Assembly: GCA_016699795.1 (NCBI GenBank)
Contig: CP065011.1
Span: 78,168-142,167 of the forward strand
DNA: 64,000 nt
Direction: 5' to 3'
Source of the DNA: Candidatus Moraniibacteriota bacterium
Lineage (GTDB): Bacteria; Patescibacteriota; Minisyncoccia; Moranbacterales; GCA-2747515
Positions 1 to 23,253 of the stretch are shown piece by piece. The notes beneath the pieces were generated by a model that was given only the letters and a program-made list of their open reading frames with translations, made no database searches and was not told the origin of the DNA. Numbering within the stretch: the stretch's first letter is position 1; every line of letters begins with the position of its first letter. The translations under genes and the position numbers were made by a program.

Positions 1-761
1 TCTCGGTCAACACCTTCATTGCGAAAAAGCCTTCCAATTTCAAATACTTTTTCATACCCTCCTACAAGTAGACGTTTAAGAGCGAGCTCCAAAGAAATTC
101 GTAAATAAAAATCTCGATCCATTGCATTGTGTCTGGTAATGAAAGGTTCTGCATCTGCACCACCAGGGACATTTTCCAAAACGGGTGTCTGTACTTCCAA
201 AAATCCTTCCTTAGAAAGAAAATCTCGAACAGTTTTCCAAAAAATGTTTTTCCTAAAAAAAATATCTTTTGTTTCAGGATGAACAAGGAGATCCAAGTAT
301 CGTTTTCGAAGAAGTTCTTCTGTGTCTTTTATGCCAAAATGCTCACTTGGTATAGGACGTATTGTCTTGGAAAGCATACTCCATGAAGTTCCTTTTATTG
401 TTTTTTCTTCTTTCTTTGTAAGAAAAACTTTTCCAGAAACCTCTATAAAATCACCAATGTCTACACTTTTAGAAAAAAGTCGAAATGTTTCTCCGAGAGT
501 TTTTTCTTCAAAAAATATTTGCATTTTTCCACTAAGATCTTCTATATGCGCAAATGCAATTTTCCCCATTACACGAAGTGATCGGATCCTTCCTGCGATT
601 GTTACTTCACTTTCATTTTCAAAAAATTTCTTAAAAGATTCTTGAACATCTTCAATATTCTGCATCCTTTTTGTTTTTTCTGGATAAGGATTCATCCCAA
701 AATCCCGAAGTACTTGTAATTTTGCCCTTCTCCCTTCAATAATATCATCTCTCATACCCAT
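1..761 (-). CDS. lysS: Lysyl-tRNA synthetase (class II), N-terminal ~250 aa; the C-terminus lies beyond the left window edge
   Basis: Minus-strand translation from ATG at 759-761 reads [18 protein letters not shown]...[32 protein letters not shown] (OB-fold anticodon-binding domain). It continues ...[68 protein letters not shown], which carries class II LysRS motifs. The frame stays open to position 1. It is absent from the ORF track because the stop is off-window. Confidence 0.8.
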   Translation of the reverse strand, partial: [253 protein letters not shown]

Positions 762-1107
762 TTTCTTAAATACATTGATTTTTTAAAACATTTCCCATTA
801 AGAATATCCTACCGCACACACAAACAAAAAACAAGAAATATACCATCGCATAATCAGGATTTCATCAATTCAAATAAATAATAACACAAGGTTTTCCAAA
901 ACATTTCATGAATATTAACTAAAAAATATTCTTACTAAAATATAAACTATTAAAAATACATACTAAATTACTATTACTAAAAAATTCTATCAAAATGCAA
1001 ATCGTATTTAAAAATTTTAATACAAATGACTAGTTTTTTTCAATTATAAAAATTTATTTAATTCTCACAATTTGTAAAAATATTCATCAAGTATAAATCT
1101 TTAACTA

Positions 1108-2334
1108 TTAATTATTATATGGAGCATCTTTTTCTAAAAGCTTTTTATAGATTTCCTCCAAACGGTCCTTGTATATTTTTTCTTCAAGATCATTCACGCT
1201 TTGCAACGCTTTTTTGGAAACATTTTCAAGATTTTTCTGTTTCAAAACTTTTTTCATTACATGAGCTAAATCTTTAACATTTCCAAATTCAAAGAGGAAT
1301 CCATTCTCTCCATCAACTATTCTTTCTGTTATTCCTCCAATTCGCGAAGCAATCACGATCAATCCCTTTCCAAGAGCCTCTACCAAGGCGTAAGGCATAT
1401 TTTCATACCAAACAGAAGGAATAATAACAAGAGTAGTCAAGCCCATTTCTTCTGAGAGAGCTGTTTCTGAAAGATGTCCAAGAAATCGAACTCTATCAGA
1501 AACACCCAAGGAAACAGAAAGTTTTTCAAGATTTTTTCGTTCTGGACCATCTCCAGCAATAGTAAGAAAAAGTCCTTCGACAGAAACCATTGCTCGAAGA
1601 AGAACATCCACGCCCTTTTCAGAAGAAAGTCTTCCAGCATAAAGTGCTGAAGCATTTTTTTGATATGTATATTTAAAAGAAACACTATCTCTTTTGATAG
1701 GTTGAGAAAGGATTGTTATTTCTTTTTGAAATCCTCGTTCTTTAAATTTTTCTTTGAGAAATTTACTTGGAGAAAGTAAAATGTCTATTTTATTATAGAT
1801 ACCTATCAATGTATGGAAAAAGTTTTCGAAAGAACAGACCACACTCGAAGAAAAAGAATTTTGTACACATGTATCCAAAATACATTGAATGTTCCCTCCT
1901 TCCCAAATATGATCTCTCGAAAAAAGAGAATAGTTGGGACATACTAATTTATAGTCATGAAGCGTCATAACTATCGGAATATTTCTTTTTTTTAAGGTTG
2001 CTATAATTGAGGGAGAAATTTGATGATATATATTATGAAGATGTGCAATGTCCGGTTGAAATTTTTCCAAGAGCCTTTCTAAATTCCTTTGCGCTTCAAA
2101 ATTCCATAAAATCTTTCCCGTAAAACAAATACGATCTTGTATGCTATACTGTGTATGATAATCTACATTTTTTATAAAATAAGATTCCCATTCTGTTGGT
2201 TTATTCTGAGGATGTTGCATAGAAAAAAATGCTACCTCGTGACCCGCCTCAGAAAGAATCCGAGCCGTATCAAAATAGGCACGTTCAGCTCCTCCTCGAA
2301 GATAATGAAATTTATTAATCAAAAGTATTTTCAT
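1108..2334 (-). CDS. Glycosyltransferase family 4 (GT-B fold)
   Basis: 408 aa. N-terminal MKILLINKF..GGAERA and C-terminal EGxxxxxxEAL-like region (ENMPYALVEALGKGLIVIAS) are typical of GT4/GT1 enzymes. Confidence 0.7.
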   Translation of the reverse strand: MKILLINKFHYLRGGAERAYFDTARILSEAGHEVAFFSMQHPQNKPTEWESYFIKNVDYHTQYSIQDRICFTGKILWNFEAQRNLERLLEKFQPDIAHLHNIYHQISPSIIATLKKRNIPIVMTLHDYKLVCPNYSLFSRDHIWEGGNIQCILDTCVQNSFSSSVVCSFENFFHTLIGIYNKIDILLSPSKFLKEKFKERGFQKEITILSQPIKRDSVSFKYTYQKNASALYAGRLSSEKGVDVLLRAMVSVEGLFLTIAGDGPERKNLEKLSVSLGVSDRVRFLGHLSETALSEEMGLTTLVIIPSVWYENMPYALVEALGKGLIVIASRIGGITERIVDGENGFLFEFGNVKDLAHVMKKVLKQKNLENVSKKALQSVNDLEEKIYKDRLEEIYKKLLEKDAPYNN

Positions 2335-2354
2335 AATTCCATTCTAACGTATTT

Positions 2355-3743
2355 ATGAATAAAAGCATACCTTTCAAATTTTCCCTCTTCATGATTTTTT
2401 TAGCAGTATCTAGTGTTCTTTTTATAAGCCTTCTCATACTCAATTATCCCGTTTCTCAATCTTCTATTGTTTCTCTTTTCTCTCTTTTACCCTTCTTTCT
2501 TTTTGCCTTCCCATTTATCACCCTTGGTTTTCTTCTTATTGTTCGTCCGAGTCTCGATTACCTTTCGGATACATTTTATTTTTTTCTCCCCTTTGGCGAA
2601 GGTATGACCGTAACACTCGCTCAAGGATTCGGCTTGGGAGTTGTATTTCTTTCCCTTCTCTTTTTTCTTCGTTTTCGAAAAGCATTTCTCTCACACACAC
2701 TCTCAAGTTTTTTTCTCCTCCTCCTTTCTTGGGGTGCTTTTACACTTTCATACACCATAGATACAACACAAACTATGTATGAACTTTTCCGTTTATTGTC
2801 AATATTTTTTGTATTTTCTTTTTCTTATTATCTTATCGTAAACGAAAAGTCTTTTATTAAACTTCTTATTATTATTCTTGTCTCTTGTGTTATTCCTGTA
2901 TTCACAGCATGGACACAATTCGTGCTTGGAATTGGTTATACAGATGATGCTTTTTCTGTTCCCCGTATATACGGAACATTTGCACATCCAAATATTTTTG
3001 CTCTCTATCTTACTATTGCCATCGCCGCAGGATCTCTTCTTTTTCTCTTTATCAGAAAACCTCTTTACAAAATGTTTCTTGGATCAACATTATTCATTCT
3101 TCTTATAACTCTTTTCTTTACGTATTCCCGAGCAGCGTGGGGAACATTTTTTCTTTTTGCCATCCTTGTAATTTTCTATAAATATCCCAAATCACTTCCT
3201 TTTATTATTATTTTTCCCCTTATTGTATTTTTCATCTCTTCTCCTGTTCGCGATCGTGTAGAAGATGTTTTACACTTTTCTCAATCAAGCTCTCTCACCT
3301 GGCGTATAAACATTTGGACTGACACAATCTCCAAAACCCAAGAAGAAGGAAAAATTCTTCTTGGTTATGGCCTTAACACTTTTGAAGAAGTTGCTGAATC
3401 TTTACGGGGAATACGATTTGTCGTCAATGATCCTCATAGTGAATTTGTACGCTCATTTGTTGAAGGTGGGATTATTGGACTTCTCGTTTTCCTTATTTTT
3501 TCTCTCGCCCCTCTCATTATTTCTTGGAAGCAATTTCACATTACCTCCAAAGAAAAACTTACATCTCAGGATTCTCGTAAAAAAACTGTATTTTTCATTC
3601 TCTGGGCACTCCTTCTTTCACTTTTTTTCTTGAGTTTTACCGATCACGTTCTCCGCTCTACTATGGTTCAATGGTCGCTTTGGGCTCTTCTTGGTGGAGC
3701 ACTTCGTGTATATGTAAAACCTCCATCTTCCCTAAATGAATAA
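2355..3743 (+). CDS. O-antigen ligase / Wzy-like polysaccharide polymerase family membrane protein
   Basis: 462 aa with at least 10 predicted TM helices. Carries the conserved O-antigen-ligase-domain motif YSRAAWG followed by a large loop and further TM helices. Confidence 0.6.
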   Translation: MNKSIPFKFSLFMIFLAVSSVLFISLLILNYPVSQSSIVSLFSLLPFFLFAFPFITLGFLLIVRPSLDYLSDTFYFFLPFGEGMTVTLAQGFGLGVVFLSLLFFLRFRKAFLSHTLSSFFLLLLSWGAFTLSYTIDTTQTMYELFRLLSIFFVFSFSYYLIVNEKSFIKLLIIILVSCVIPVFTAWTQFVLGIGYTDDAFSVPRIYGTFAHPNIFALYLTIAIAAGSLLFLFIRKPLYKMFLGSTLFILLITLFFTYSRAAWGTFFLFAILVIFYKYPKSLPFIIIFPLIVFFISSPVRDRVEDVLHFSQSSSLTWRINIWTDTISKTQEEGKILLGYGLNTFEEVAESLRGIRFVVNDPHSEFVRSFVEGGIIGLLVFLIFSLAPLIISWKQFHITSKEKLTSQDSRKKTVFFILWALLLSLFFLSFTDHVLRSTMVQWSLWALLGGALRVYVKPPSSLNE

Positions 3744-3808
3744 TTTGTGTTAGATTATTCAATTACGTTATATTTTGATTTTTTAAAAAGTACTCTTATC
3801 TCACTACT

Positions 3809-4696
3809 ATGCAAAGGATTTTCTTTTTTCTTCTCACCAATATCGCGGTTATAGCAGTCGCTTCTCTCTTATTGAGCATTTTCAACATTGCGCCCTATCT
3901 CAGTGCTTCAGGAATAAATTATCAATCTCTCCTTATTTTTTCTGCTGTATTCGGATTTTCTGGATCAATCATTTCCCTTCTTATCTCTAAATGGATGGCA
4001 AAAAATGCCTTTGGTATAAAAATCATCCAGCAAGCAAAAACTCCTGAAGAACAGTTTATTTTTCAAACAGTGCAAACACTAGCGAGACAATCATCTCTTG
4101 GTATGCCTGAAGTAGGAATATACGATTCACCCGAAGCTAACGCATTTGCTACAGGTTGGAATCGAAATCATGCGCTTGTTGCTGTTTCCACAGGACTTCT
4201 TAATGGAATGGAAAAAGATGAAATAGAAGCGGTCTTGGGCCATGAAATTGCACATATCGCCAATGGCGATATGGTAACCCTCACACTCATTCAAGGAGTA
4301 GTAAATACCTTTGTTATTTTCTTTGCTCGAATCGCAGCTTATGCCGTTCAAGTCTTCTTTAGTAAAGATAATGAAGAGGAAGGAATAAGCACACTTGCCT
4401 ATTCTCTCACTTCCATTGTTTTTGAAATTCTTTTTGGAATCTTAGCAAGTATGATTGTTATGGCTTTTTCTCGACACAGGGAGTTTCGAGCTGACTCAGG
4501 AAGTGCAAAATTTCTGGGAAAAGAAAAAATGATCAAAGCCCTTCAAAAACTCGAGACCCTCCAAGATCGCCTTATCGATCCTCGAGGAAAGTCTTTTGCT
4601 ACTATGAAAATTTCTGACAAGCCTTCTGGATTTCTTTCTTTTTTTTCTAGTCATCCCCCACTCAAAGATCGGATAGAAGCCTTGAAAAAACAATAA
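3809..4696 (+). CDS. htpX: Zn-dependent membrane protease HtpX (M48 family)
   Basis: 295 aa. Two N-terminal TM helices, HEIAHIANGD (HExxH) zinc motif, and C-terminal TM plus conserved tail typical of HtpX. Confidence 0.85.
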   Translation: MQRIFFFLLTNIAVIAVASLLLSIFNIAPYLSASGINYQSLLIFSAVFGFSGSIISLLISKWMAKNAFGIKIIQQAKTPEEQFIFQTVQTLARQSSLGMPEVGIYDSPEANAFATGWNRNHALVAVSTGLLNGMEKDEIEAVLGHEIAHIANGDMVTLTLIQGVVNTFVIFFARIAAYAVQVFFSKDNEEEGISTLAYSLTSIVFEILFGILASMIVMAFSRHREFRADSGSAKFLGKEKMIKALQKLETLQDRLIDPRGKSFATMKISDKPSGFLSFFSSHPPLKDRIEALKKQ

Positions 4697-4702
4697 AAAA
4701 TA

Positions 4703-4729
4703 CCCCGTCTCATATCTGGACGGGGTTTT
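4703..4729 (+). terminator. Rho-independent terminator after htpX
   Basis: Stem ccccgtc / gacgggg with 9-nt loop, followed by TTTT; 6 nt after the TAA stop at 4694-4696. Confidence 0.6.
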
Positions 4730-5018
4730 AAAAATCTTTCAGTCATCTAAATTTTCTTCGGCAAACATTGCGCGCAAACCTTCCCACAAAAAAACCAAAG
4801 GAAAGAGAACGAGAAGAATGCCAAACACCAGAGCTATGTACCACCATGAATTACTCGGCTCACTCATTATATATCTCCAATACGTATCAAAAAACTTTTT
4901 TCACTCTAGCAGAAAAGGCTCGTAGAGAAAAGATCCCCTCTGAAATGAAAACCTTTTCATCAAAAGAAAAACCGCCGAAAGAAGTATCTTTCAACGGTTT
5001 AGTAAAAACTAGAGACTA

Positions 5019-5429
5019 CTAACTACACTGTCCGAACTTCCCTCTGAAAACGATAGGGACGTATCTTGTGGGATTTATGAATATTCCACAAGCAGTTTCG
5101 TCATCGGCAGTCCATGTGCCGGGCATTTCGTCTGAAAGACGATTTTTGCCATCCGTAACGATGTACGGTTTTCCGAATTCCATTTCTGAGCTCTTTTTTA
5201 CACATCCATGTAATCTACCCGTTTCTTCATTCACCCTACAGGCGAAGAAGTTTTTAGAGTTCCAAGAAGTTATCTTTTCCTTGTATATTTCGTTCCACAA
5301 CAATCCATCTGGAGTTGTCGCCGCGAAAACCTTCGAAGAAAAAAAGAGGAAGAGGAGAAGAATTCCTGTTATAAAGAGAAAAAGAGAGAAAGCCCCTCCG
5401 AACAAGTAGGGTGTATCGTATTTTTTCAT
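5019..5429 (-). CDS. Small secreted Cys-containing protein (signal peptide/TM, 4 Cys), uncharacterised
   Basis: 136 aa with N-terminal hydrophobic segment. Contains motifs DGLLW...TSW...CRVNEETGRLHGC...GKPYIV shared with the adjacent GC-rich gene at 5666-6079. Confidence 0.45.
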   Translation of the reverse strand: MKKYDTPYLFGGAFSLFLFITGILLLFLFFSSKVFAATTPDGLLWNEIYKEKITSWNSKNFFACRVNEETGRLHGCVKKSSEMEFGKPYIVTDGKNRLSDEMPGTWTADDETACGIFINPTRYVPIVFRGKFGQCS

Positions 5430-5665
5430 CTCTCACTCCTAGGCTCACTTGCCTAAAAAATATAAAAGAACATATTTGTCCGAAAAAATTCGGTACAGGT
5501 TTGGACAGAGAGATTGTATTCTCCGTATCCAAGACTTTATCGAATAAATAAAAAAGAAAATCGACAGAGAACAATACGAATACTATCTTCTATTCGGTAA
5601 ATTTTACCAAAAGAAAAATATTATTGTATGTTCTCTGACGATTAATCGAGACGATGTTCAGACGG

Positions 5666-6079
5666 TTATTTTACCGTCCAGTAATCGTCGGATCGGGCCT
5701 TGAACGACCCGACCACGCTCCCGGGCCCAATCATTTGGGTTCCAGGAGCGGACCCAGCCTCACCCCATGTTGATCCTCCGCAGAAGATCACGTATGGGAG
5801 TCCGCTCTGCATGGCAGAAGGAGGCCCACACTCAGTCATCGACGGGCGTCCATTTTCGGCGCGACAGATCTCGCAAAGAGATGGGTCATAAGGAATGACC
5901 CTTACTCCTTGGGAAGCCGCGGACCAAGAAGTTCCGTCGTAGCGTCCAGCGTGGGCCGGAGAGGCAAGGAGGAGGAGCAGAAACAGGGTTCCTACTATTG
6001 CCAGTGTGGCTATGAAGCCCCCAAAAGAAGCTTCCGCCCACGTCTCATCCTGCTGTTGCTGATTCTGAAAATAGTTCAT
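5666..6079 (-). CDS. Small secreted Cys-containing protein, GC-rich paralog of 5019-5429
   Basis: Start is reassigned to the in-frame ATG at 6077-6079 (MNYFQNQQQQ...), which has an AGGAG Shine-Dalgarno 6 nt upstream. The AT-rich part of the track ORF (to 6352) upstream is non-coding. TM segment, then DGTSW...CEICRAENGRPSMTEC...GLPYVIFCGG, matching the neighbour's motif spacing. Roughly 50% GC versus the ~33% background. Confidence 0.45.
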   Translation of the reverse strand: MNYFQNQQQQDETWAEASFGGFIATLAIVGTLFLLLLLASPAHAGRYDGTSWSAASQGVRVIPYDPSLCEICRAENGRPSMTECGPPSAMQSGLPYVIFCGGSTWGEAGSAPGTQMIGPGSVVGSFKARSDDYWTVK

Positions 6080-6253
6080 CTCGAACTCCTGGGGGTGTTT
6101 TCCCCTAAATATTGAAAAAGTACTTGTTCTCTCTTCCTTTTTGGGAAGATGATGGAATGACATCAACGATATCAATCCAATAATCTTTCGAAAAAAAGGA
6201 ATGCCCGGAAGCGAGAAAGAGATTATTCGAATACATCTCTCACGCTTCCTGGC

Positions 6254-6282
6254 AATATAGCACATCCTGACAATTTTGTCAA
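6254..6282 (-). promoter_or_regulatory. Sigma70-like promoter driving the GC-rich small gene, with a palindrome over the -35
   Basis: Minus-strand TTGACA (complement of 6277-6282), 17-nt spacer, TATATT (complement of 6254-6259). The inverted repeat TGACAAttTTGTCA (6268-6281) overlaps the -35. Confidence 0.45.
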
Positions 6283-6437
6283 GATATATACGGATTTTAC
6301 CGCGCACTTTCAAGGATATCCTTGAATTTTCTTTGAGAAAATCCTTTCTCAAAGCGGAAAGTCATACCTTCTTTCCCATTTTTTATCTTCTTTGATTCTT
6401 TACAATTTCCGTGTAAAGGTTATTTCCTTACCAACAA

Positions 6438-8114
6438 CTACCCAGAAAAAGAACCTAATGCACTTTCAATTCCTCCCGAAGAAGAAATTGTTATGTGCTG
6501 TTTCTCCTCATTATTGGAAGATGCAGTTTGTTGATCTGCGGCCCAACCAAACGGTGAGGAGGTTGACGTGTTATTGTGTTGATCAGCTTTATAATCCTTT
6601 ACAAAATGATTTTCATCACTCTGAGAGGATGGGACTGATTTTGCTTTCGGAGCTACAGCTTTCGCTTTCACACCGAGGTATTGCTGAGAGCTTCCGGCAT
6701 TGTCCGTAAGAGCCGTAGTAGCAACCTGCGAGTTAGCACGAAGCCAACCCAATCCAGCATTCCACTCGATCTCCACGATGAAGTGAGGATCGGGGAATTG
6801 TACACCTACACCGATGCGCCAGACATCGTCCTTCGTAGCGATTCCGGCAAGGATTTTACCCCCGATCGGATTACTGACCACGTCGCTGATATGCCAGATC
6901 CCCAGCGTAAGCTCGGGTTTGACATTCCAGTCTGCTCGATCTAATTCGAACCGAAGAATGGCGCCGACCACGAGTTTCCTTGCGGACTCATGATTGACAG
7001 GTGTTCCTTTCCAGAGAATGTCCGTTTTGTTACCACTAAGAGGAATATCCACCCATGGCATAAAACGAACAGTTACACCAGTCTGATCATCAATTTTGAA
7101 CCGCTCCCGAAGTTGCAAAGCGATTCGAAGATCCATACCATCGGCACGGAGCTTTTCTACCAGACCATCCTTGGAGTATCCACGAGTTGAGCCTTGTCCC
7201 GCAAGGACAACGAATTCAACCGCATCGATGTCACCGACCGGTCCACGACCTTCGATACCAACGCCGTAGAAATCAGAGACTTCCACCCATTCCTTATTAT
7301 TGAAACGAGCGGACTTACCTGCGATCGACGGACCCACCTTCCAGCCGTTTCCAACTGGGAAAAGGCACGAGAAACGGAGTGATCCGCTTTCTCCACGTTG
7401 CCCCATCTGAGCCCAAAGAGCACCTACGGCTTCACAACCAAGACTTTCTTGGGTAGGAGCGGGAGCTGGTGGCGTGGGAACTGTTACTGTGTTCCAAGCA
7501 ACGTTTCCACACCGCATGGCGATGTCAACCTGCTTGCTACCATTCATGGATGGGCATGCCCAAACCATGATGTCAGTACCACTGGCGTTTTGAGTCTTGC
7601 CCCAATTCCCCTTGCCCATAGCCATACCTTCCCAGGTAAAACCTATGGGACGAGCAACGGCCTGACACTTTCCAGAAACAAGATCTCCCCGAACCTGCTC
7701 CACTTCCGAACTCGAAAGTCCGAATTGAGACAGGCGACGAGATTGCTCTGAAGTGAGTTGCAATTCTTCCGTCTTGTGCCATTCTTTCCGGAGGCGAAGA
7801 GGAAGAAGAGAATCAGCGCCGACTTTCTTCCACTGGCGAATACCAGAGGAAGATTCCAGAACAACAGGAGATTGTTTCACAGAAGAAACGACTATTCCTG
7901 ATTCTGGAAGCGTGAGGGTTTGTCCAACGCGAATCGTGTGAGGAGCCTTAATCCCATTCGCTCTGGCAATTTCTTGCCAAGAAGTCTGGGATTTATTGGC
8001 GATTTTGATCAAGGAGTCACCCTTGACCACCGTGTACGTCCCCGCCGAAGCAAGGGGCGCGCCAACAACCGCGAGAAAAATTCCCGCGATGACGAGAAGT
8101 TTCCTAAACATCAT
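6438..8114 (-). CDS. LysM (peptidoglycan-binding) domain protein with signal peptide and large beta-rich C-terminal domain
   Basis: Start trimmed to MMFRKLLVIAGIFLAVVGAPLASA (signal peptide; GGGAGG just upstream), which avoids a 62-nt overlap with the upstream gene. Canonical LysM: YTVVKGDSLIKIANKSQTSWQEIARANGIKAPHTIRVGQTLTLP. The C-terminal ~400 aa show an alternating hydrophobic beta-strand-like pattern (VTVRFMPW, LVVGAILRFELD, WRIGVGVQFP, FIVEIEWNAGLGW). Lies in the GC-rich island. Confidence 0.6.
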   Translation of the reverse strand: MMFRKLLVIAGIFLAVVGAPLASAGTYTVVKGDSLIKIANKSQTSWQEIARANGIKAPHTIRVGQTLTLPESGIVVSSVKQSPVVLESSSGIRQWKKVGADSLLPLRLRKEWHKTEELQLTSEQSRRLSQFGLSSSEVEQVRGDLVSGKCQAVARPIGFTWEGMAMGKGNWGKTQNASGTDIMVWACPSMNGSKQVDIAMRCGNVAWNTVTVPTPPAPAPTQESLGCEAVGALWAQMGQRGESGSLRFSCLFPVGNGWKVGPSIAGKSARFNNKEWVEVSDFYGVGIEGRGPVGDIDAVEFVVLAGQGSTRGYSKDGLVEKLRADGMDLRIALQLRERFKIDDQTGVTVRFMPWVDIPLSGNKTDILWKGTPVNHESARKLVVGAILRFELDRADWNVKPELTLGIWHISDVVSNPIGGKILAGIATKDDVWRIGVGVQFPDPHFIVEIEWNAGLGWLRANSQVATTALTDNAGSSQQYLGVKAKAVAPKAKSVPSSQSDENHFVKDYKADQHNNTSTSSPFGWAADQQTASSNNEEKQHITISSSGGIESALGSFSG

Positions 8115-8844
8115 AACCTCCCGAGGATTTCTCCTCTTTTTTAGAACTTTCTTTCTTCTCTTCAAGAAGGTTTGGCTCTTTGAGGAGCGCGCACCCTATT
8201 TGAAGGACTTTGGGAAGGGCTCCAATGGGTCCATACATTATCGGTCCGAGAATATCGGATGACGATATAGACCCAAGCCCACAAATTGCTGACCGTTCTT
8301 TCCAATCGACAAGCGATGGGACCGAAACAGCGTTGAGTGCATCTTCTCCGAAAAGGAGTCTCGCTCCTGATCCCGGTATATCATCGGAGATAAACGGGAA
8401 CTCTCCTCCGAGATGAGCATATATATCCCGAAGCTCGGAAGCACTTAACTCCTTTGCCACAGGGACCATATACGCCTTACCTCGCGCGGAGATGACTTCC
8501 ACACCTCGGAACTCACTCGAAGAAAAAACATACCCTTTTTCTCCTTTCGGATAAAGAGAAATGTTTTGACCCGAGACGCGAGCTCGAAATGCCTTTCGGC
8601 AAATTTCGACCTGCTTTTTGTCAAGAGTCATGTACTGTTTGCACATAACCTCTCGTTTCACCTCCTTCGGAAGTGAAACCTCATATCCCTTTGCCGAATG
8701 AATCGGCGGAGGGGCCACAAATGTCGTGGCATTGGCAAGATATTCCATCTCACCACCACTCAGACCCAACGACTCACGAGGAGTCATTGGAGCGCATCCC
8801 GACGCGATAATCGCGACGAGAACAAGACTCAACCTATTATTCAC
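8104..8844 (-). CDS. Lipoprotein (lipobox LVAIIASGC), uncharacterised
   Basis: Start reassigned to GTG at 8842-8844 with GGAGG 6 nt upstream (...agagaGGAGGtttgttGTGaat). The AT-rich 5' part of the track ORF (to 8940) matches flanking non-coding composition. Signal peptide VNNRLSLVLVAIIASG-C. GC-rich composition. Confidence 0.45.
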   Translation of the reverse strand: MNNRLSLVLVAIIASGCAPMTPRESLGLSGGEMEYLANATTFVAPPPIHSAKGYEVSLPKEVKREVMCKQYMTLDKKQVEICRKAFRARVSGQNISLYPKGEKGYVFSSSEFRGVEVISARGKAYMVPVAKELSASELRDIYAHLGGEFPFISDDIPGSGARLLFGEDALNAVSVPSLVDWKERSAICGLGSISSSDILGPIMYGPIGALPKVLQIGCALLKEPNLLEEKKESSKKEEKSSGGYDV

Positions 8845-9000
8845 AACAAACCTCCTCTCTCTTTCGAGAGAAAAAATCAAAAAAAATTTTAAAAGTACTC
8901 GGATCAAAACTTCATATAAACTATGAAAGTGATCCCGCAAGGAGAGAAAAAGAATTTTCTCCCTTGTGCGGAAACATTCTCAAGCAATTCTTTCAATAAA

Positions 9001-9690
9001 CTATATATCGTAGATCAGACCGCCACGCGATTCCTTATTCTTCATTGGAGGAGCGAAAACTGAATAATCTGTTGTATCCACTTCTTGTTTATACCATATA
9101 CGAATAAAGAAAATGGCTATTCCAAGGATCATCCCAGCGATGCTTCCAAATATCAATTGCATTATGGTTGGATTCTGCTCCACAATAGGTCCTGATATAA
9201 GCTTTATCGATAATGACTCCGGTGGACCTGATCGAAATAATGTATTTTGATTAATAAGCACATCAGATATAGCCTTAGCAATACCAATAGCATCATTTCT
9301 GCTATCACGATATACAGTCACTTCAAGAATACCTGCATTCGATCTTTGTTTTACCTCTACAGTATTCTGCCATTCTTTTAAACGACTTCGTTCATCACCC
9401 GAGAAAGGCTCTCTTTCAAAATAATTTGTTCGAGAAGCCTCGTTAAGAAAAAGATCACTCATCACAGCTTCACGAAGAACATTTCCACTATATTCAGCAC
9501 TTTTAGAAAGTGTATAGAAGTCTTTAGAATCCTCACTGTGTTGCATTACAAGAAAATCTGTTCGAACTTTGTATGCATCAGGAACAAATATCAAAAGAAG
9601 AAAAACGAAAACGCCCCCAATAAGTGCTGAAAAAAATATATTTCCAACATTGTTACGGATATTCGTAAAAAACAGAGAATAGTAATACAT
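9001..9690 (-). CDS. Polysaccharide co-polymerase (Wzz/chain-length-determinant-like): TM1, external domain, Pro-rich segment, TM2
   Basis: 229 aa. N-terminal TM (FFSALIGGVFVFLLLIFV), soluble middle, then GPIVEQNPTIMQLIFGSIAGMILGIAIFFI near the C-terminus, which is PCP family topology. Confidence 0.45.
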   Translation of the reverse strand: MYYYSLFFTNIRNNVGNIFFSALIGGVFVFLLLIFVPDAYKVRTDFLVMQHSEDSKDFYTLSKSAEYSGNVLREAVMSDLFLNEASRTNYFEREPFSGDERSRLKEWQNTVEVKQRSNAGILEVTVYRDSRNDAIGIAKAISDVLINQNTLFRSGPPESLSIKLISGPIVEQNPTIMQLIFGSIAGMILGIAIFFIRIWYKQEVDTTDYSVFAPPMKNKESRGGLIYDI

Positions 9691-9808
9691 AATAAAGAGA
9701 GTTTTTTCAATAATGCTAACGGGCTACATTAGCACAACTTTTAATTTTTGTCAATAGTAACGACAAAAAACGCCTTATTAAAAACGTTTTATTTTTCTCT
9801 TTATTTCT

Positions 9809-11029
9809 CTATTCTGGTTGAGCACCAAGAACAACTGTAACTTTTTGTTCAATTCCTTGACGAACAAATGATACAGTCACTTCATCTTTTTCTTTAAAAT
9901 TACTCAAAACATTGGAAAGCGGATTTTCATAACTAATAGAAATATCATTTACCGAACGAATGATATCCCCATAGCGAAAACCAGCTTTTTGCGCAGGAGA
10001 ACCCAAAAGAACGACTGGAGAAAGAGGACTAGTCTTTTGTTCAAAAGACAACCAAGCGCCTGATTCTATATTTAAGTCATTTCTTTTTGCTATAGTCGGG
10101 GTAATGGATATATAAGACGCTCCAAAAAATGGAGGTTGATAGCTAGGATTTGCAACAACCCTTTGCATGCTTTTTTTCATATCATTTCCTCTCAAAACAT
10201 AAGGAAAACTCTGATCCCCTACCGTCCTAGTACCCAAGATACCCATTAATTCTCCCGTATAACTTAATACCGGAGAACCAGATCGTATATCTTTTTCTTC
10301 CAAAAAAGAAACTTCAAAAACTCCTTGATGTTTTTCGGTTGAAGAAGAGACCTTATTAGCCAAAGAAAAAGTTGGATTAAATGTTTTAATAACTCCAAAA
10401 TAAATCTCATTTTGATTCAAAATATCATTTTCTCCAAGAGCAATAACTTTTCTTCCGGAAGAAAAATCTTCAGAATCAGCAAAAACTACTGGAGTAAAAT
10501 TATCCCCAGATATTCGAAGATATAATAAATGAGAAAAAGAATCATATGCAAAAAATTTCGCATCAAAACGAGTTCCGTCAAAATCCATTATGTCATAAGT
10601 TGTCTCAGAAAAATCTAAAGAATCTGAAAAAGATGTAACCAATAAACCATCCGTAGTAAGAATTGTTCCTGTTAAAGAAAAAATTCTTTTTGTTAAAGCT
10701 TTTTCCTGCATCATAATATATACAATGGAATTGCTCACATTTTGAATAGAACGATCTAGTCGATCATCATCACGTATAATTATCTCTTCCCTATTGTTAA
10801 TAACTGTTGTATTTTCTTTTGCCGTTTCTAACAAAGAAAAATTTGAAAACATTTCTAAAGAAGCCAAAAATGGCAAAGCCAAACGAATGGAAAAAATCGA
10901 GACAATTCCAATAAAAAGAATAATCCCTATATATCGAAAGAGAAATCTAAAAATAAATACAGATTTTCGTAAAAAAGGAATCATATATATAAAGAATACA
11001 CGAAAAATAAAAAATATACAATAATACAA
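9809..11029 (-). CDS. Membrane-anchored trypsin-like serine protease (HtrA/S1C-like) with C-terminal PDZ domain
   Basis: 406 aa. N-terminal TM region; trypsin-fold core with Ser motif region IRSGSPVLSYTGELMGI; C-terminal PDZ-like (GFRYGDIIRSVND). Confidence 0.5.
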   Translation of the reverse strand: MYYCIFFIFRVFFIYMIPFLRKSVFIFRFLFRYIGIILFIGIVSIFSIRLALPFLASLEMFSNFSLLETAKENTTVINNREEIIIRDDDRLDRSIQNVSNSIVYIMMQEKALTKRIFSLTGTILTTDGLLVTSFSDSLDFSETTYDIMDFDGTRFDAKFFAYDSFSHLLYLRISGDNFTPVVFADSEDFSSGRKVIALGENDILNQNEIYFGVIKTFNPTFSLANKVSSSTEKHQGVFEVSFLEEKDIRSGSPVLSYTGELMGILGTRTVGDQSFPYVLRGNDMKKSMQRVVANPSYQPPFFGASYISITPTIAKRNDLNIESGAWLSFEQKTSPLSPVVLLGSPAQKAGFRYGDIIRSVNDISISYENPLSNVLSNFKEKDEVTVSFVRQGIEQKVTVVLGAQPE

Positions 11030-20658: not shown

Positions 20659-23253
20659 CTAATCCCCCACCGTAACCGTCATACTATGAGTAAGACGATT
20701 CCCTGCTTTATCTGTTACTTTGAGAGTAAGGGTGTAGATTCCATTTGAAACAGATTCAGGGATGATGAAGAAAGAATCTTTTTTGTTTGGTATCTTTTTC
20801 CATTCTTTATGATAGGGAGTGAGTTTTACTTGATAGGAGTCTATACCAGAGAAGTTATCTTTTGCAGGAAAGTCTATTCTTGTTCCTCTTGTTACGTTTT
20901 GTGTTTTTGGAAGTTCTGTTTTGAAGGTTGGAGCTTTTCTATCATAGATTACTTTAAACCATTGTGAGATGTCAGATTCATTTCCTGCTTCATCTATAAG
21001 TTTGATAGCATAGTGTCTTGAATCATTTTCTTTTTTTGGGAGAGAGTATTCCCAATTCCCATCTTTATCTATACGTGCAGTAGCTATTTTTCTTTTTGCT
21101 CCAAGATAGGTTCTTTGATACACAACGACAGTTCCATTCTTTGCTTCTTCATTCCTTCCTTTAAGTTTGGGACGTTCTTTTTGTGTATAGAAGGTTTCTC
21201 CTTCTTCTATGTTTGTTTTCTTTGTTCCTTTGAGTTCGAGAGTGATTTGAGATTTTGGTTCGAGGGTAGGTTCTTTTGTATCTATAGTAGTATCTTCTGA
21301 AGGAGATGTTTGTATGCTTGTACTATTTCCTACATTGTCTGTTGATCGTATGTATATGATGTGGTTTCCATCAGAGAGATTGGTGAGGGTGCAGGTGAAT
21401 GATTCTTCTTGTTCTTCAAAGAGAGAATCGTTTGAGGTGCATGGAGTCCATGATCCTGAGAGAGAGTCGAGTTGATACTCTACGTTTTGGATAGTTCCAT
21501 CAGTATCTTTTGTTGTTCCGGTAAGAATAAGAGTGGAATCATTGGTAAGAGGAGGGAGAGGGTTAAGAGTGAGGGAGGGATAGGTGAGGTCTATGGTGAA
21601 GGTGAAAGAAGATTCTTCTCCTTCTTTTGTGGTATTGGTATTGGAGTCAGTAGATCGTGTGTATATGGTATAGGTTCCATCTGTGAGTTCAGGAGTTGTG
21701 CAAGAGAAAGATTCTGATGCACTGTTAAAAGTTCCATCATCTGGGGTGCAGGGAGTCCAAGATCCGGAGGTAGAGTTGAGTTGGAATTCTACGGATTGGA
21801 TGGTACTAAGGAGATCAGTTGCTGTTCCGGTAAGAGTTGGTGTGGAGTCTGGGGTGGGAGTGGAGATGGGAGTGAGGGAGAGGGAGGGAGGAGTGGTGTC
21901 GTAAGAGAAGGCGGAGAGGAAAATGTCGGATCCTCCAAAACCCACCCCTGATTCATAGGGATCGGTAAAATCTCCATCACCGTTTAAATCAGCTATGTCG
22001 GTTATGCGACCCGTTATGTAAATATTTCCAGAAGAATTACTAATACTACTATAAACAAAATCATTTCCTACCCCTCCCAAACGTCTAGACCAGAGATATT
22101 CTCCAGAAGAAGTAAAGGCAGAAATAAAGGCATCTTGCCCCCCATACGGAACTCCGCCAGTTTCATTAACATCAAGAATATCTCCGTCACCATTAAGATC
22201 AGCTATGCCCGTTACGGATCCTGCTATATAAATATTTCTGGAAGTATCTCTACTACTAATATTCCAAATGTAATCGAAGCTCCCCCCTCCTAAACGTTTA
22301 GACCAAAGATATTCTCCAGAAGAAGTAAAGGCAGAAATAAAGGCATCTTGCCCCCCATACGGAACTCCGCCAGTTTCATTAACATCAAGAATATCTCCGT
22401 CACCATTAAGATCAGCATCACCAGTTATAAATCCTGTTACGTAAAGATTTCCAAAAAAATCAGTTATTACTTTATAATTAGTGTCTGTCTCTAATCCTCC
22501 TAAACGTTTAGACCAAAGATGTGTACCATCTGATGTAAAGGCGGAAAGAAAGGCATCCGGCTCTCCATACGGAGCTACGACAGTTTCATTGAAATCATTA
22601 GTATCACCATCGCCATTAAAATCAGCTGTACCCCTCGTTTGTCCTGAAATATAGATACCTCCAGAAAAATCCACAGAACTGCCTCGACCAGTATCTTGTT
22701 CTACCCCTCCCAAACGTTTAGACCAAAGATATTCTCCAGAAGAAGTAAAGGCAGAAATAAAGGCATCTTGCCCCCCATACGGAACTCCGCCAGTTTCATT
22801 AACATCAAGAATATCTCCGTCACCATTAAGATCAGCTATGCCCGTTACGGATCCTGCTACATAAAGATTTCCTGAGGAATCAAGAGTTATACTCGAACCA
22901 TTATCAGTTCCCGTTCCTCCAAGACGCTTTGACCAGAGATATGTTCCGTCTGAGGAAAAAACGGAGAAAAAAGCATCAGTTCCTCCGAATCCTATTCCTG
23001 ATTCATAGGGATCAGTAAAGTCTCCATCGCCATTTAAGTCAGCGTCTCCAGTAATATATTCTGCAACATACATATTTCCTGAGGAACCTATAGCTATGTA
23101 ATAACCAGTATCGCTCCCTGCTCCTCCCAACCGCTTTGACCACTCATGTGTGACCGTTGCTGCCTGAGCATACTGTGAAAGAAAAAAGAAAACAAAGAAT
23201 ATTCCGAAAAGTGTGGGGAGAAGATGTGATTTTTTATAAGAAAAAATTCTCAT
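20659..23253 (-). CDS. Large secreted SBBP-repeat beta-propeller protein with FG-GAP-like DxNGDGD calcium-binding inserts, PT-rich linker and C-terminal Ig-like domains
   Basis: 864 aa. Signal peptide, then ~6 repeats of LWSKRLGG.G.D.G..I..DSSGN.YV.G..TG.ADLNGDGD..D.NE.GG.PYGG.DAFISAFTS.G.YLW. Then TPISTPTPDSTPTLTGT linker, then two similar domains (TDGTYTIYTRSTDSNTN / SDGNHIIYIRSTDNVGN). Confidence 0.65.
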   Translation of the reverse strand: MRIFSYKKSHLLPTLFGIFFVFFFLSQYAQAATVTHEWSKRLGGAGSDTGYYIAIGSSGNMYVAEYITGDADLNGDGDFTDPYESGIGFGGTDAFFSVFSSDGTYLWSKRLGGTGTDNGSSITLDSSGNLYVAGSVTGIADLNGDGDILDVNETGGVPYGGQDAFISAFTSSGEYLWSKRLGGVEQDTGRGSSVDFSGGIYISGQTRGTADFNGDGDTNDFNETVVAPYGEPDAFLSAFTSDGTHLWSKRLGGLETDTNYKVITDFFGNLYVTGFITGDADLNGDGDILDVNETGGVPYGGQDAFISAFTSSGEYLWSKRLGGGSFDYIWNISSRDTSRNIYIAGSVTGIADLNGDGDILDVNETGGVPYGGQDAFISAFTSSGEYLWSRRLGGVGNDFVYSSISNSSGNIYITGRITDIADLNGDGDFTDPYESGVGFGGSDIFLSAFSYDTTPPSLSLTPISTPTPDSTPTLTGTATDLLSTIQSVEFQLNSTSGSWTPCTPDDGTFNSASESFSCTTPELTDGTYTIYTRSTDSNTNTTKEGEESSFTFTIDLTYPSLTLNPLPPLTNDSTLILTGTTKDTDGTIQNVEYQLDSLSGSWTPCTSNDSLFEEQEESFTCTLTNLSDGNHIIYIRSTDNVGNSTSIQTSPSEDTTIDTKEPTLEPKSQITLELKGTKKTNIEEGETFYTQKERPKLKGRNEEAKNGTVVVYQRTYLGAKRKIATARIDKDGNWEYSLPKKENDSRHYAIKLIDEAGNESDISQWFKVIYDRKAPTFKTELPKTQNVTRGTRIDFPAKDNFSGIDSYQVKLTPYHKEWKKIPNKKDSFFIIPESVSNGIYTLTLKVTDKAGNRLTHSMTVTVGD
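22094..22859. repeat. Three perfectly identical 110-bp intragenic repeats (two extend to 133 bp) inside the SBBP gene
   Basis: The sequence agatattctccagaagaagtaaaggcagaaataaaggcatcttgccccccatacggaactccgccagtttcattaacatcaagaatatctccgtcaccattaagatcagc occurs at 22094-22203, 22307-22416 and 22727-22836. Copies 1 and 3 stay identical to 22226/22859. A diverged copy lies at about 22516. Confidence 0.9.

What the first reader, a model, noticed from the sequence alone, without database searches (positions are those of the whole stretch)
5019..6079. Adjacent homologous small Cys-rich secreted proteins with sharply different base composition
The AT-rich gene 5019-5429 and the GC-rich gene 5666-6079 align with conserved motif order and spacing: DG..W, 18-19 aa, CR[VA]..E.GR....C, 8-9 aa, G[KL]PY[IV][VI]..G(G). 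So the left boundary of the GC-rich island falls right next to a native paralog. That suggests acquisition of a xenologous copy, perhaps by homologous recombination from a higher-GC relative. This is unlike a random insertion.
Basis: seen in the sequence. Interest (0 to 1): 0.55.

Follow-up and report, generated by a model that had tools for sequence, protein, structure and literature searches.

The report
Paralogous secreted proteins in GC-rich cassette
Two neighbouring small secreted proteins of a tiny uncultured bacterium are real but distant relatives, and both belong to a block of cell-surface genes that stays GC-rich at the same site in all related genomes and is swapped for very different versions between close strains, so it is not a recent foreign insertion next to a native copy.

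Summary
Genes A (5019-5429) and B (5666-6079) encode homologous signal-peptide proteins, about 26% identical. Profile comparison gives 93% probability (P=3.4e-7), and an intermediate relative links them (BLASTP E=5e-8).

The interpretation mostly fails:
- A is not compositionally native. Its GC3 is 0.45; 47 other genes in the window have 0.15-0.32.
- B is the conserved resident. The cassette lipoprotein D - LysM protein - B sits between a Wzz-like gene and Wzy/GT4 in all eight other Moraniibacteriota/Paceibacteria lineages examined.
- A, with a 42-aa membrane ORF, is the lineage-specific addition. It was found in only one of those lineages.
- A and B share no DNA similarity that could anchor recombination.
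- The cassette coding sequences are 12-20 GC points above background in every lineage, whatever that background is. Polarised synonymous changes are balanced or GC-gaining in three of four lineages. The GC excess is therefore maintained, not an un-ameliorated import.

Two relatives with 94% identical flanks carry unalignable D, LysM and mature-B sequences, so alleles at this locus are replaced by recombination.

B also has a consensus promoter and a conserved, covarying 5' leader RNA with no Rfam match. The function of the proteins and the force that keeps GC high are unknown.

The parts
5019..5429 (-). Gene A: 136-aa secreted protein (signal peptide residues 1-36) and a divergent paralogue of B. 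Public record: IPN70_00425, hypothetical protein, Candidatus Moraniibacteriota.
   Evidence: ORF. Identical protein on a 1.19-Mb contig. Only one other homologue cluster, P0013, in 5.8e9 proteins. Homology to B. GC3 0.445.
5666..6079 (-). Gene B: 137-aa secreted protein. The mature domain of about 93 aa has four Cys invariant in allele class I (C69, C72, C84, C100). The longer ORF from TTG 6352 is an artefact of translating the leader.
   Evidence: ORF. 11 homologues at 55-83% identity. 7 representatives in 1.84e9 clusters. GC 0.56, GC3 0.565. AF2 model with pLDDT 74-93 over residues 61-137.
6254..6282 (-). Near-consensus sigma-70 promoter of B: TTGACA-17-TATATT with an extended -10 TG.
   Evidence: 11/12 match, the best in 4600-9100. 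Conserved in W, L002, L009, L010, L001 and L008.
6127..6189 (-). Conserved structured element in the 5' leader of B: a long hairpin with a conserved GGAU/AUCC base and a covarying upper stem. A GGGG..CCCC hairpin next to the Shine-Dalgarno lies further downstream.
   Evidence: RNAalifold: 16 pairs, 6 with compensatory changes. The covariance model finds exactly one copy per locus at 61-72 bits in all nine lineages. No Rfam match.
6438..8114 (-). LysM protein: 558 aa with a signal peptide, one LysM peptidoglycan-binding domain, and about 470 aa of unknown C-terminal region.
   Evidence: Pfam LysM E=1.5e-15. Only the LysM part matches PDB, PHROGs or NCBIfam. GC 0.50, GC3 0.45. Start refined.
8104..8844 (-). 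Lipoprotein D: 246 aa with lipobox IASG|C and a GTG start behind GGAGG. It overlaps the LysM gene start by 11 nt, which suggests translational coupling.
   Evidence: No family hit. Conserved upstream of the LysM gene in all lineages. GC3 0.43.
4739..4867 (-). 42-aa single-pass membrane ORF downstream of A. It is conserved in the L002 lineage and also GC3-rich (0.44). With A it forms the roughly 0.8-kb segment that is absent from the L009, L010 and L001 lineages.
   Evidence: Called as 42-43-aa genes in L003 and L005.
4969..5000 (-). Intrinsic terminator directly after A: a 14-bp stem followed by a T run. No canonical terminator or promoter was found between B and A, so B and A are probably co-transcribed (inference).
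9001..9690 (-). Right flank: Wzz/CpsC-like polysaccharide chain-length determinant, at background GC.
   Evidence: NCBIfam TIGR01006 E=1.1e-7, below its cutoff. GC3 0.26.
3809..4696 (+). Left flank: HtpX-type M48 protease at background GC, followed by the Wzy_C and GT4 genes.
   Evidence: Pfam. GC3 0.29.

Best explanation
**What it is.** A and B are old, strongly diverged paralogues of a very narrowly distributed family of small secreted proteins with conserved cysteines (disulfide bonding inferred).

B is the conserved third gene of an envelope cassette made of lipoprotein D, a LysM peptidoglycan-binding protein, and B. The cassette is embedded in a cell-surface polysaccharide locus: HtrA, Wzz-like | cassette | HtpX, Wzy, GT4. 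It occupies this site in every examined Moraniibacteriota/Paceibacteria relative.

A, together with a 42-aa membrane ORF, is an extra copy added downstream of B in the ancestor of the window and L002 lineages. It is probably read from B's strong promoter.

**How it evolves.** The cassette behaves as a hypervariable 'replacement' surface locus. Close strains carry unalignable alleles exchanged through conserved flanks and the conserved B leader and signal-peptide segment. The likely driver is diversifying selection on exposed envelope proteins, from phage, host contact or competitors.

**The GC excess.** High GC is a maintained, lineage-wide property of the cassette coding sequences. It reflects a compositional equilibrium different from the rest of the genome, not a sign of recent import.

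**Shown:** homology, synteny, the distribution of A, the GC pattern, the mosaic replacement, and the promoter and leader.

**Inferred:** surface exposure, co-transcription, diversifying selection, and the nature of the GC-maintaining force. Candidates for that force are GC-biased gene conversion at a recombination hot spot, or nucleotide-level selection.
For: **Homology:**

**Synteny of D-LysM-B in eight other lineages, from independent assemblies (NCBI, ENA, Logan, JGI):**

**A restricted to the window and L002-L005:**
- Only about 185 nt separate B from the next gene in the L001, L009, L010 and L007 lineages.
- The insertion boundaries are visible in the alignment.

**Composition:**
- A's GC3 is an outlier like the rest of the island.
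- The GC excess of the cassette holds in all lineages with backgrounds of 0.33-0.46. B always has the highest GC3, from 0.57 to 0.90.
- The codon shift is a general rise of both G3 and C3 in all codon families. Ribosomal-protein genes do not show it.
- Spacers inside the island have GC 0.33-0.38, close to the intergenic background of 0.28+-0.06.

**Age and equilibrium:**
- Synonymous sites are saturated between lineages, with four-fold differences of 0.6-0.8.
- Polarised synonymous third-position changes in the island, GC-to-AT against AT-to-GC, are 17/16 in L002, 10/21 in L009, 10/10 in L010 and 24/13 in the window.

**Allelic replacement:**
- L008 against L012: positions 2-3823 are 94% identical, D and LysM are unalignable, the B leader plus signal peptide is 89% identical, mature B is unalignable, and the downstream sequence is 92% identical.
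- In the identity matrices, the Wzz-like flank is 96% identical between them, against D 55% and LysM 42%.

**Envelope features:** LysM domain; lipobox and signal peptides read directly from the sequence.

**Expression signals:** promoter, leader and terminator.

**No mobile-element hallmarks:** no tRNA, flanking repeats or integrase.
Against: - No expression, localisation or functional data exist. Surface exposure and co-transcription are inferred from sequence alone.
- The force that keeps GC high is not identified. GC-biased gene conversion would be expected to raise the spacers too, and it does not. Translational selection is unlikely, because ribosomal genes are not shifted.
- The polarised-substitution test uses parsimony with nearly saturated outgroups and small counts. 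The window lineage itself shows a mild net GC loss (24 against 13).
- Between the window and L002, the island has lower dS (0.6-1.0) than the flanks (1.35-2.5). This could mean synonymous constraint, or a more recent exchange of the island between these two lineages. A relatively recent recombinational import into the window lineage is therefore not excluded.
- Only nine lineages are known, and only one close pair shows replacement.
- Whether A arose by in-situ duplication or by capture of a foreign allele cannot be resolved. Its distances fit a star tree.
Confidence: 0.6

Rival explanations
1. The GC-rich island, including B, was recently acquired by this genome from a higher-GC relative and landed, perhaps by homologous recombination, next to the native AT-rich paralogue A.
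For: - Total GC steps from 0.42 in A to 0.56 in B.
- A and B are homologous.
- Allele replacement by recombination occurs at this locus in relatives.
- The island's dS against L002 is lower than that of the flanks.
Against: - D-LysM-B is at the same site in all relatives, with identities similar to the flanks.
- A is the gene with the restricted distribution.
- A's GC3 of 0.445 is island-like, not native.
- The cassette is GC-rich in every lineage.
- A and B share no DNA similarity.
- No mobility genes, tRNA or flanking repeats are present.
Confidence: 0.07
2. One ancient horizontal transfer of the cassette from a high-GC donor into the common ancestor of these lineages. The GC excess is residual and amelioration is incomplete.
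For: - The atypical composition is confined to a contiguous gene block.
- The protein families are unknown elsewhere in the clade's genomes.
- The window lineage shows net GC-to-AT change in the island, 24 against 13.
Against: - Synonymous sites are saturated between lineages, and flank dN is 0.3-0.5. A two-state relaxation model therefore predicts at most about 20% of any initial excess would remain (my inference).
- The observed GC3 excess is still +0.2 to +0.45 in all lineages. It tracks each genome's background, and B ranks highest in every lineage.
- Changes are balanced or GC-gaining in L002, L009 and L010.
- No homologue was found outside this clade in 1.84e9 representatives or 185,579 species genomes.
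Confidence: 0.15
3. A is not a functional paralogue. It is a decaying duplicate of B, or an unrelated secreted ORF whose similarity reflects signal peptides and chance motifs.
For: - A evolves fast: 46-48% identity between the window and L002, against 71% for B.
- It lost B's CxxC first cysteine and C100.
- Its GC1 and GC2 have drifted towards AT.
- Direct BLASTP is marginal.
Against: - The ORF is intact, with a conserved signal peptide, two Cys and the core motifs, in two lineages whose synonymous sites are saturated.
- Statistics on the mature domain alone exclude signal-peptide artefacts.
- The intermediate P0015 gives E=5e-8.
- The AF2 model of A has the same order of secondary-structure elements as B. 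This is not independent evidence, because B sequences were in the alignment.
Confidence: 0.1

Closest known systems
Replacement-type flexible genomic islands / hypervariable surface loci (O-antigen and capsule loci, surface-protein islands of marine and pathogenic bacteria). Named from my own knowledge of the literature, not from a tool result.
   Same: - The chromosomal site is fixed and flanked by conserved genes.
- Nearly identical strains carry unalignable alleles.
- The locus encodes envelope components and sits in a Wzz/Wzy/glycosyltransferase neighbourhood.
- Composition is atypical relative to the genome.
   Different: - The content is three or four small unknown proteins, not a sugar-biosynthesis pathway.
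- Composition is higher in GC than the genome, and consistently so across deep lineages. The classical cases are usually lower in GC.
- One breakpoint lies inside a gene, at the junction of signal peptide and mature protein.
- The host is a CPR bacterium.
Classical horizontally acquired genomic island
   Same: A contiguous block with GC and GC3 far from the genome mean.
   Different: - It is present at the same site in all relatives.
- It has no integrase, tRNA or direct repeats.
- Its composition is at or near equilibrium.
LysM-domain cell-wall proteins (Pfam PF01476)
   Same: The middle gene has one canonical LysM domain after a signal peptide.
   Different: The remaining 470 aa or so match no family or solved structure. 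No hydrolase domain was detected.
Tandem paralogue pairs of small secreted proteins after duplication and divergence
   Same: The genes are adjacent and co-oriented. They share the same architecture, length and core motifs.
   Different: There is no residual DNA similarity. A is no closer to its neighbour B than to B alleles of other lineages. In-situ duplication and capture of a foreign allele therefore cannot be told apart.

Membership tests
B/A small secreted protein family (unnamed; no Pfam, NCBIfam or PHROG model) | N-terminal signal peptide with an AxA-type cleavage site, followed within about 10 residues by a conserved Trp | tested here: met
   A36/A44 and W45/W52 are invariant across 17 sequences.
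B/A small secreted protein family (unnamed; no Pfam, NCBIfam or PHROG model) | A conserved Cys pair 12 residues apart (B C72/C84 = A C64/C76), then M..PY and PG(T) | tested here: met
   Alignment columns. HMM and hhalign statistics.
B/A small secreted protein family (unnamed; no Pfam, NCBIfam or PHROG model) | The CxxC first cysteine (B C69) and a fourth Cys (C100) | tested here: not met
   A has F/A at these columns. A is a divergent subfamily, not an orthodox B.
B/A small secreted protein family (unnamed; no Pfam, NCBIfam or PHROG model) | Common three-dimensional fold | tested here: inconclusive
   The AF2 models have the same order of secondary-structure elements, but A's alignment contained B sequences. 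No superposition tool was available. B's model has no PDB match.
Recently acquired genomic island | Absent from the orthologous site in related genomes | tested here: not met
   Present in all eight other lineages examined.
Recently acquired genomic island | Mobility hallmarks: integrase or transposase, a tRNA target, flanking direct repeats | tested here: not met
Recently acquired genomic island | Atypical base composition | tested here: met
   GC3 0.43-0.57 against 0.15-0.32 elsewhere.
Replacement flexible genomic island / hypervariable surface locus | Closely related genomes carry highly divergent alleles at the same site between conserved flanks | tested here: met
   L008 against L012. Only this one close pair was available.
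Replacement flexible genomic island / hypervariable surface locus | The products are exposed on the cell surface | not testable with these tools
   Signal peptides, a lipobox and a LysM domain are seen in the sequence. Localisation needs experiment.
Diversity-generating retroelement target | A reverse transcriptase and a template/variable repeat pair nearby | tested here: not met
   No repeat pair in 3500-10500. No RT among the neighbouring genes.
Known cis-regulatory RNA (Rfam) for the B leader | A match to an Rfam covariance model | tested here: not met
   No relevant hit at E<=1 in 4500-9500.

The most novel reading that the evidence does not exclude
A four- to five-gene envelope cassette of Moraniibacteriota is held about 15-20 GC points above its genome in every lineage by an active, locus-specific process. 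The process would be either GC-biased gene conversion at a recombination hot spot that drives allelic replacement of surface proteins, or selection on the nucleotide or mRNA level. The cassette is controlled by a previously undescribed structured 5' leader RNA that is conserved even where the protein it precedes has diverged to about 30% identity. If true, this would be a clean natural system for separating maintained compositional heterogeneity from horizontal-transfer signatures in bacteria, and a new cis-regulatory RNA class in CPR bacteria.
Probability: 0.3. Interest if true: 0.65.

Novelty: new variant of a known kind. Interest (0 to 1): 0.5.

Why it matters
**Method.** A sharp GC island here looks exactly like a fresh horizontal transfer but is not one. 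It is ancestral, syntenic and compositionally near equilibrium. Composition-based HGT calls in CPR and other AT-rich genomes would misread it.

**Biology.** The locus marks a small set of unknown envelope proteins as a likely interface under diversifying selection. They are a lipoprotein, a LysM protein, and one or two small secreted proteins with conserved cysteines. These bacteria are ultra-small and probably host-dependent, and their surface biology is almost unknown.

**Leads for experiment.** The conserved leader RNA and the consensus promoter give concrete handles. The persistent GC offset offers a test case for GC-biased gene conversion against selection in bacteria.

Tried and rejected
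**Family and structure searches that found nothing**
- Pfam, NCBIfam and PHROGs gave no family for A, B or D. Only the LysM domain of the middle gene was recognised.
- PDB sequence searches found nothing beyond LysM.
- The afdb50 library was unavailable.

**Searches for more family members**
- For A: the word-index search with the A profile found only the two known clusters. A metagenome pattern scan found none.
- For B: only 2 species genomes and 1 extra metagenome contig.

**Ideas tested and dropped**
- 'A's upstream hairpin (UUGGAU..UCCAA, 5498-5532) is homologous to B's leader, so leader plus gene were duplicated together.' Rejected. The simple pattern is not enriched (6 found against 4.0 expected), and the covariance model of the B leader does not hit the A leader even at E<=10.
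- 'High GC3 reflects translational selection in highly expressed genes.' Rejected. Ribosomal-protein genes have background GC3 (0.18-0.26), and the shift affects G- and C-ending codons in all codon families.
- 'GC enrichment is limited to the exchangeable mature-protein part.' Rejected. The signal-peptide codons of B are equally GC3-rich. The script that measured this stopped partway.
- 'A is derived specifically from the L011-type allele.' Not resolvable. The distances fit a star tree in which P0015 has a short branch.
- DGR, integrative-element and tRNA-target explanations: no supporting features.
- Assembly chimera: excluded, because the same arrangement appears in independent assemblies from NCBI, ENA, Logan and JGI.
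- Literature searches found no description of this locus.
Full report
**Origin and setting.** Gene A's product is identical to a hypothetical protein (IPN70_00425) on a 1.19-Mb contig of a Candidatus Moraniibacteriota bacterium, a member of the Candidate Phyla Radiation. The window has GC of about 0.33. Forty-seven ORFs of at least 120 aa have GC3 of 0.15-0.32, ribosomal-protein genes included.

A block on the minus strand stands out:

| Gene | Coordinates | GC | GC3 |
|---|---|---|---|
| Lipoprotein D | 8104-8844 | 0.46 | 0.43 |
| LysM protein | 6438-8114 | 0.50 | 0.45 |
| B | 5666-6079 | 0.56 | 0.57 |
| A | 5019-5429 | 0.42 | 0.445 |
| 42-aa membrane ORF | 4739-4867 | 0.43 | 0.44 |

The flanks are envelope genes at background composition. 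On one side lie HtrA and a Wzz/CpsC-like gene. On the other lie an HtpX-type M48 protease, a Wzy_C protein and a GT4 glycosyltransferase.

**Step 1: is the observation real?** Both ORFs are real and both products have clear signal peptides. Direct BLASTP of A against B is marginal (E=0.003, 26% identity over 97 aa), and part of that alignment is signal peptide.
- With signal peptides removed, the Smith-Waterman score is 40 against 24.8+-4.5 for shuffles, and 15 of 2000 shuffles reach it.
- B has 11 homologues at 55-83% identity.
- A has only one other homologue cluster, P0013, at 48% identity.
- An HMM of mature B scores the two A proteins at 12.2 and 13.1 bits in the same register. Shuffled A reaches this 1/5000 and 0/5000 times.
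- An exhaustive HMM search of 1.84 billion cluster representatives found just seven family members. Three of them are distant: P0015, P0016 and P0017.
- Adding these raises the hhalign probability of the A family against the B family from 42% to 93%, P=3.4e-7.
- A against P0015 gives BLASTP E=5e-8. Mature-domain z-scores are 8.7 and 10.6. P0015 against B has z=10.4.

The joint alignment keeps A36, W45, C64, C76 and G104 invariant. Two qualifications apply:
- A conserves only two cysteines.
- A is not AT-rich where it counts, because its GC3 is 5.7 sd above the genomic background.

**Step 2: what is the locus?** I looked up where B homologues are encoded. The same arrangement appeared in every case: Wzz-like gene, D, LysM protein, B, then (HtpX) Wzy and GT4. 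The loci are:
- L002-L005 (ENA and Logan assemblies)
- L001/L006 (GCA_018401135.1)
- L007 (Paceibacteria JTS-AC323)
- L008, L009 (JGI) and L010
- L011 and L012, which hold the distant members P0015 and P0017

. P0015 and P0017 are thus positional orthologues of B, not extra paralogues.

A is present only in the window and in the L002-L005 lineage. In L001, L009, L010 and L007, B is followed within about 185 nt by the next conserved gene. The alignment shows that A and the 42-aa ORF together form a segment of about 0.8 kb that is absent from L009, L010 and L001.

Protein identities between the window and L002 are comparable for the island and the flanks. The island gives D 75%, LysM 79%, B 71% and A 46%. 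The flanks range from 60 to 85%. A and B share no significant DNA similarity. A could not have served as an anchor for homologous recombination.

**Step 3: the GC excess.** D, LysM and B are GC-rich in all nine lineages.

| Lineage | Background GC | Island GC |
|---|---|---|
| Window | 0.33 | 0.46-0.56 |
| L002, L009, L010, L008, L012 | 0.39-0.41 | 0.50-0.59 |
| L011 | 0.38 | 0.58-0.61 |
| L007 | 0.45 | 0.62-0.67 |

The GC3 excess is +0.15 to +0.45, and B is always the highest. Further points:
- The shift raises both G- and C-ending codons in all codon families. Ribosomal genes do not share it, which argues against ordinary translational selection.
- Spacers within the island are near the intergenic background.
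- Synonymous sites are saturated between most lineages.
- Polarised synonymous third-position changes (GC-to-AT against AT-to-GC) are balanced in L002 (17 against 16) and L010 (10 against 10). L009 gains GC (10 against 21). Only the window lineage shows a moderate loss (24 against 13), and its whole genome has moved to lower GC.

I conclude that the excess is maintained and is not residual foreign composition. This is partly inference, and the parsimony test is noisy. The mechanism remains open.

**Step 4: hypervariability.** L008 and L012 are 94% identical in nucleotide sequence over 3.8 kb of left flank.
- Their D and LysM genes are unalignable, except for 45 nt in the LysM domain.
- Identity returns at 89% over the B leader and signal-peptide codons.
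- It vanishes over mature B and returns at 92% downstream.
- At the protein level the flank is 96% identical, against D 55% and LysM 42%.

This is allelic replacement with breakpoints in conserved segments. It is the behaviour of replacement-type flexible islands that encode surface structures. At least four allele classes exist: I (window, L002, L009, L010, L007), II (L008), III (L011) and IV (L012, P0016). Recombination with relatives does remodel this locus, though not in the way proposed and not demonstrably in this genome. The lower dS of the island between the window and L002 (0.6-1.0 against 1.35-2.5 for the flanks) fits either synonymous constraint or a more recent exchange between those lineages.

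**Step 5: expression signals.** Upstream of B lies the best sigma-70 match in the region: TTGACA-17-TATATT with an extended -10 TG, at 6282-6254. It is conserved in six lineages. A leader of about 170 nt follows.
- Its core (6127-6189) folds into a long hairpin of 16 pairs, 6 of which show compensatory changes.
- A covariance model finds exactly one copy per locus, at 61-72 bits. This includes L011 and L012, where B itself is only 25-31% identical to the window's B.
- Rfam has no match.
- Public protein records that extend B to 172-215 aa translate this leader.
- A strong terminator follows A. No promoter or canonical terminator was found between B and A. I therefore infer a bicistronic B-A transcript.
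- D and LysM overlap by 11 nt.

**Step 6: function.** Only the LysM domain is recognisable.
- The A model is weaker but shows the same order of elements. This is not independent evidence.
- From the signal peptides, the lipobox, the LysM domain and the polysaccharide and protease neighbourhood, I infer an envelope-associated complex. Its exposed parts would be under diversifying selection.
- A would be an accessory or alternative partner within that complex.

This is a working hypothesis and has not been demonstrated.

**Comparison with known systems, and verdict.**
- The locus fails the tests for a recent genomic island: it is present in all relatives and has no mobility hallmarks.
- It fails the test for a DGR target.
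- It meets the structural criteria of a replacement flexible island, on the basis of one close pair.
- A meets the core criteria of the B family but lacks two of its four cysteines.

The case is a new variant of a known kind of locus, built from unknown protein families in a poorly known phylum. It has two unexplained features worth follow-up: the maintained GC offset and the conserved leader RNA. Interest is moderate, about 0.5.

Noticed in passing
window 6080-6282 (minus strand); core motif 6127-6189: A conserved consensus promoter and a structured 5' leader RNA lie upstream of B. Six of the 16 leader pairs show compensatory changes. There is one copy per locus in all nine lineages, even where the B protein has diverged to about 30% identity. 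No Rfam family matches. This may be a new cis-regulatory element.
   Followed up: partly
window 4739-4867 (minus strand): A 42-aa single-pass membrane ORF (MSEPSNSWWYIALVFGILLVLFPLVFLWEGLRAMFAEENLDD) is conserved in the L002 lineage and has GC3 0.44. It was gained together with A relative to L009, L010 and L001, and it extends the GC3-rich block to about 4739.
   Followed up: partly
L008 1-7020 versus L012 1173-8506: Two near-identical genomes (94% nucleotide identity in the flanks) carry unalignable D, LysM and mature-B sequences. The breakpoints lie at the D start, at the B leader and signal-peptide segment, and at the B stop. L012 also has a GIY-YIG gene inserted after B.
   Followed up: partly
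L001/L006 (GCA_018401135.1, JAGYLL010000001.1), about 5200-7650: The D and LysM genes are fragmented across frames in this MAG (tblastn pieces; spurious antisense ORFs were called), while B is intact. This reflects either pseudogenisation of the cassette or assembly errors in the GC-rich stretch.
   Followed up: no
L012 11967-12887: A second GC-rich gene (GC 0.53, GC3 0.61) for a secreted, Cys-containing 306-aa protein sits just after GT4 in a genome with about 0.39 GC. GC-rich secreted-protein genes may therefore be a wider phenomenon in this clade.
   Followed up: no
window 20659-23253 and 60108-63842 (minus strand): Two very large surface proteins have GC 0.40-0.41, driven by GC2, and GC skew opposite to neighbouring genes. 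One has SBBP beta-propeller and Big_13 Ig-like repeats. The other has seven Pur_ac_phosph_N/fn3 repeats. Their GC3 (0.28-0.32) is only slightly raised, so not all surface genes share the island's composition.
   Followed up: partly
public protein records P0002, P0004, P0005, P0006, P0008, P0009: Gene callers extend B by 35-80 residues at the N terminus (172-215 aa) by translating the conserved leader. The true start is the ATG behind AGGAG (window 6079).
   Followed up: yes
window 5666-8844 versus L002: Synonymous divergence of D, LysM and B between the window and L002 (dS 0.6-1.0; four-fold differences 0.34-0.49) is about half that of the flanking genes (dS 1.35-2.5; four-fold differences 0.54-0.64). 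The cause is either synonymous constraint or a later exchange of the cassette between these lineages.
   Followed up: partly
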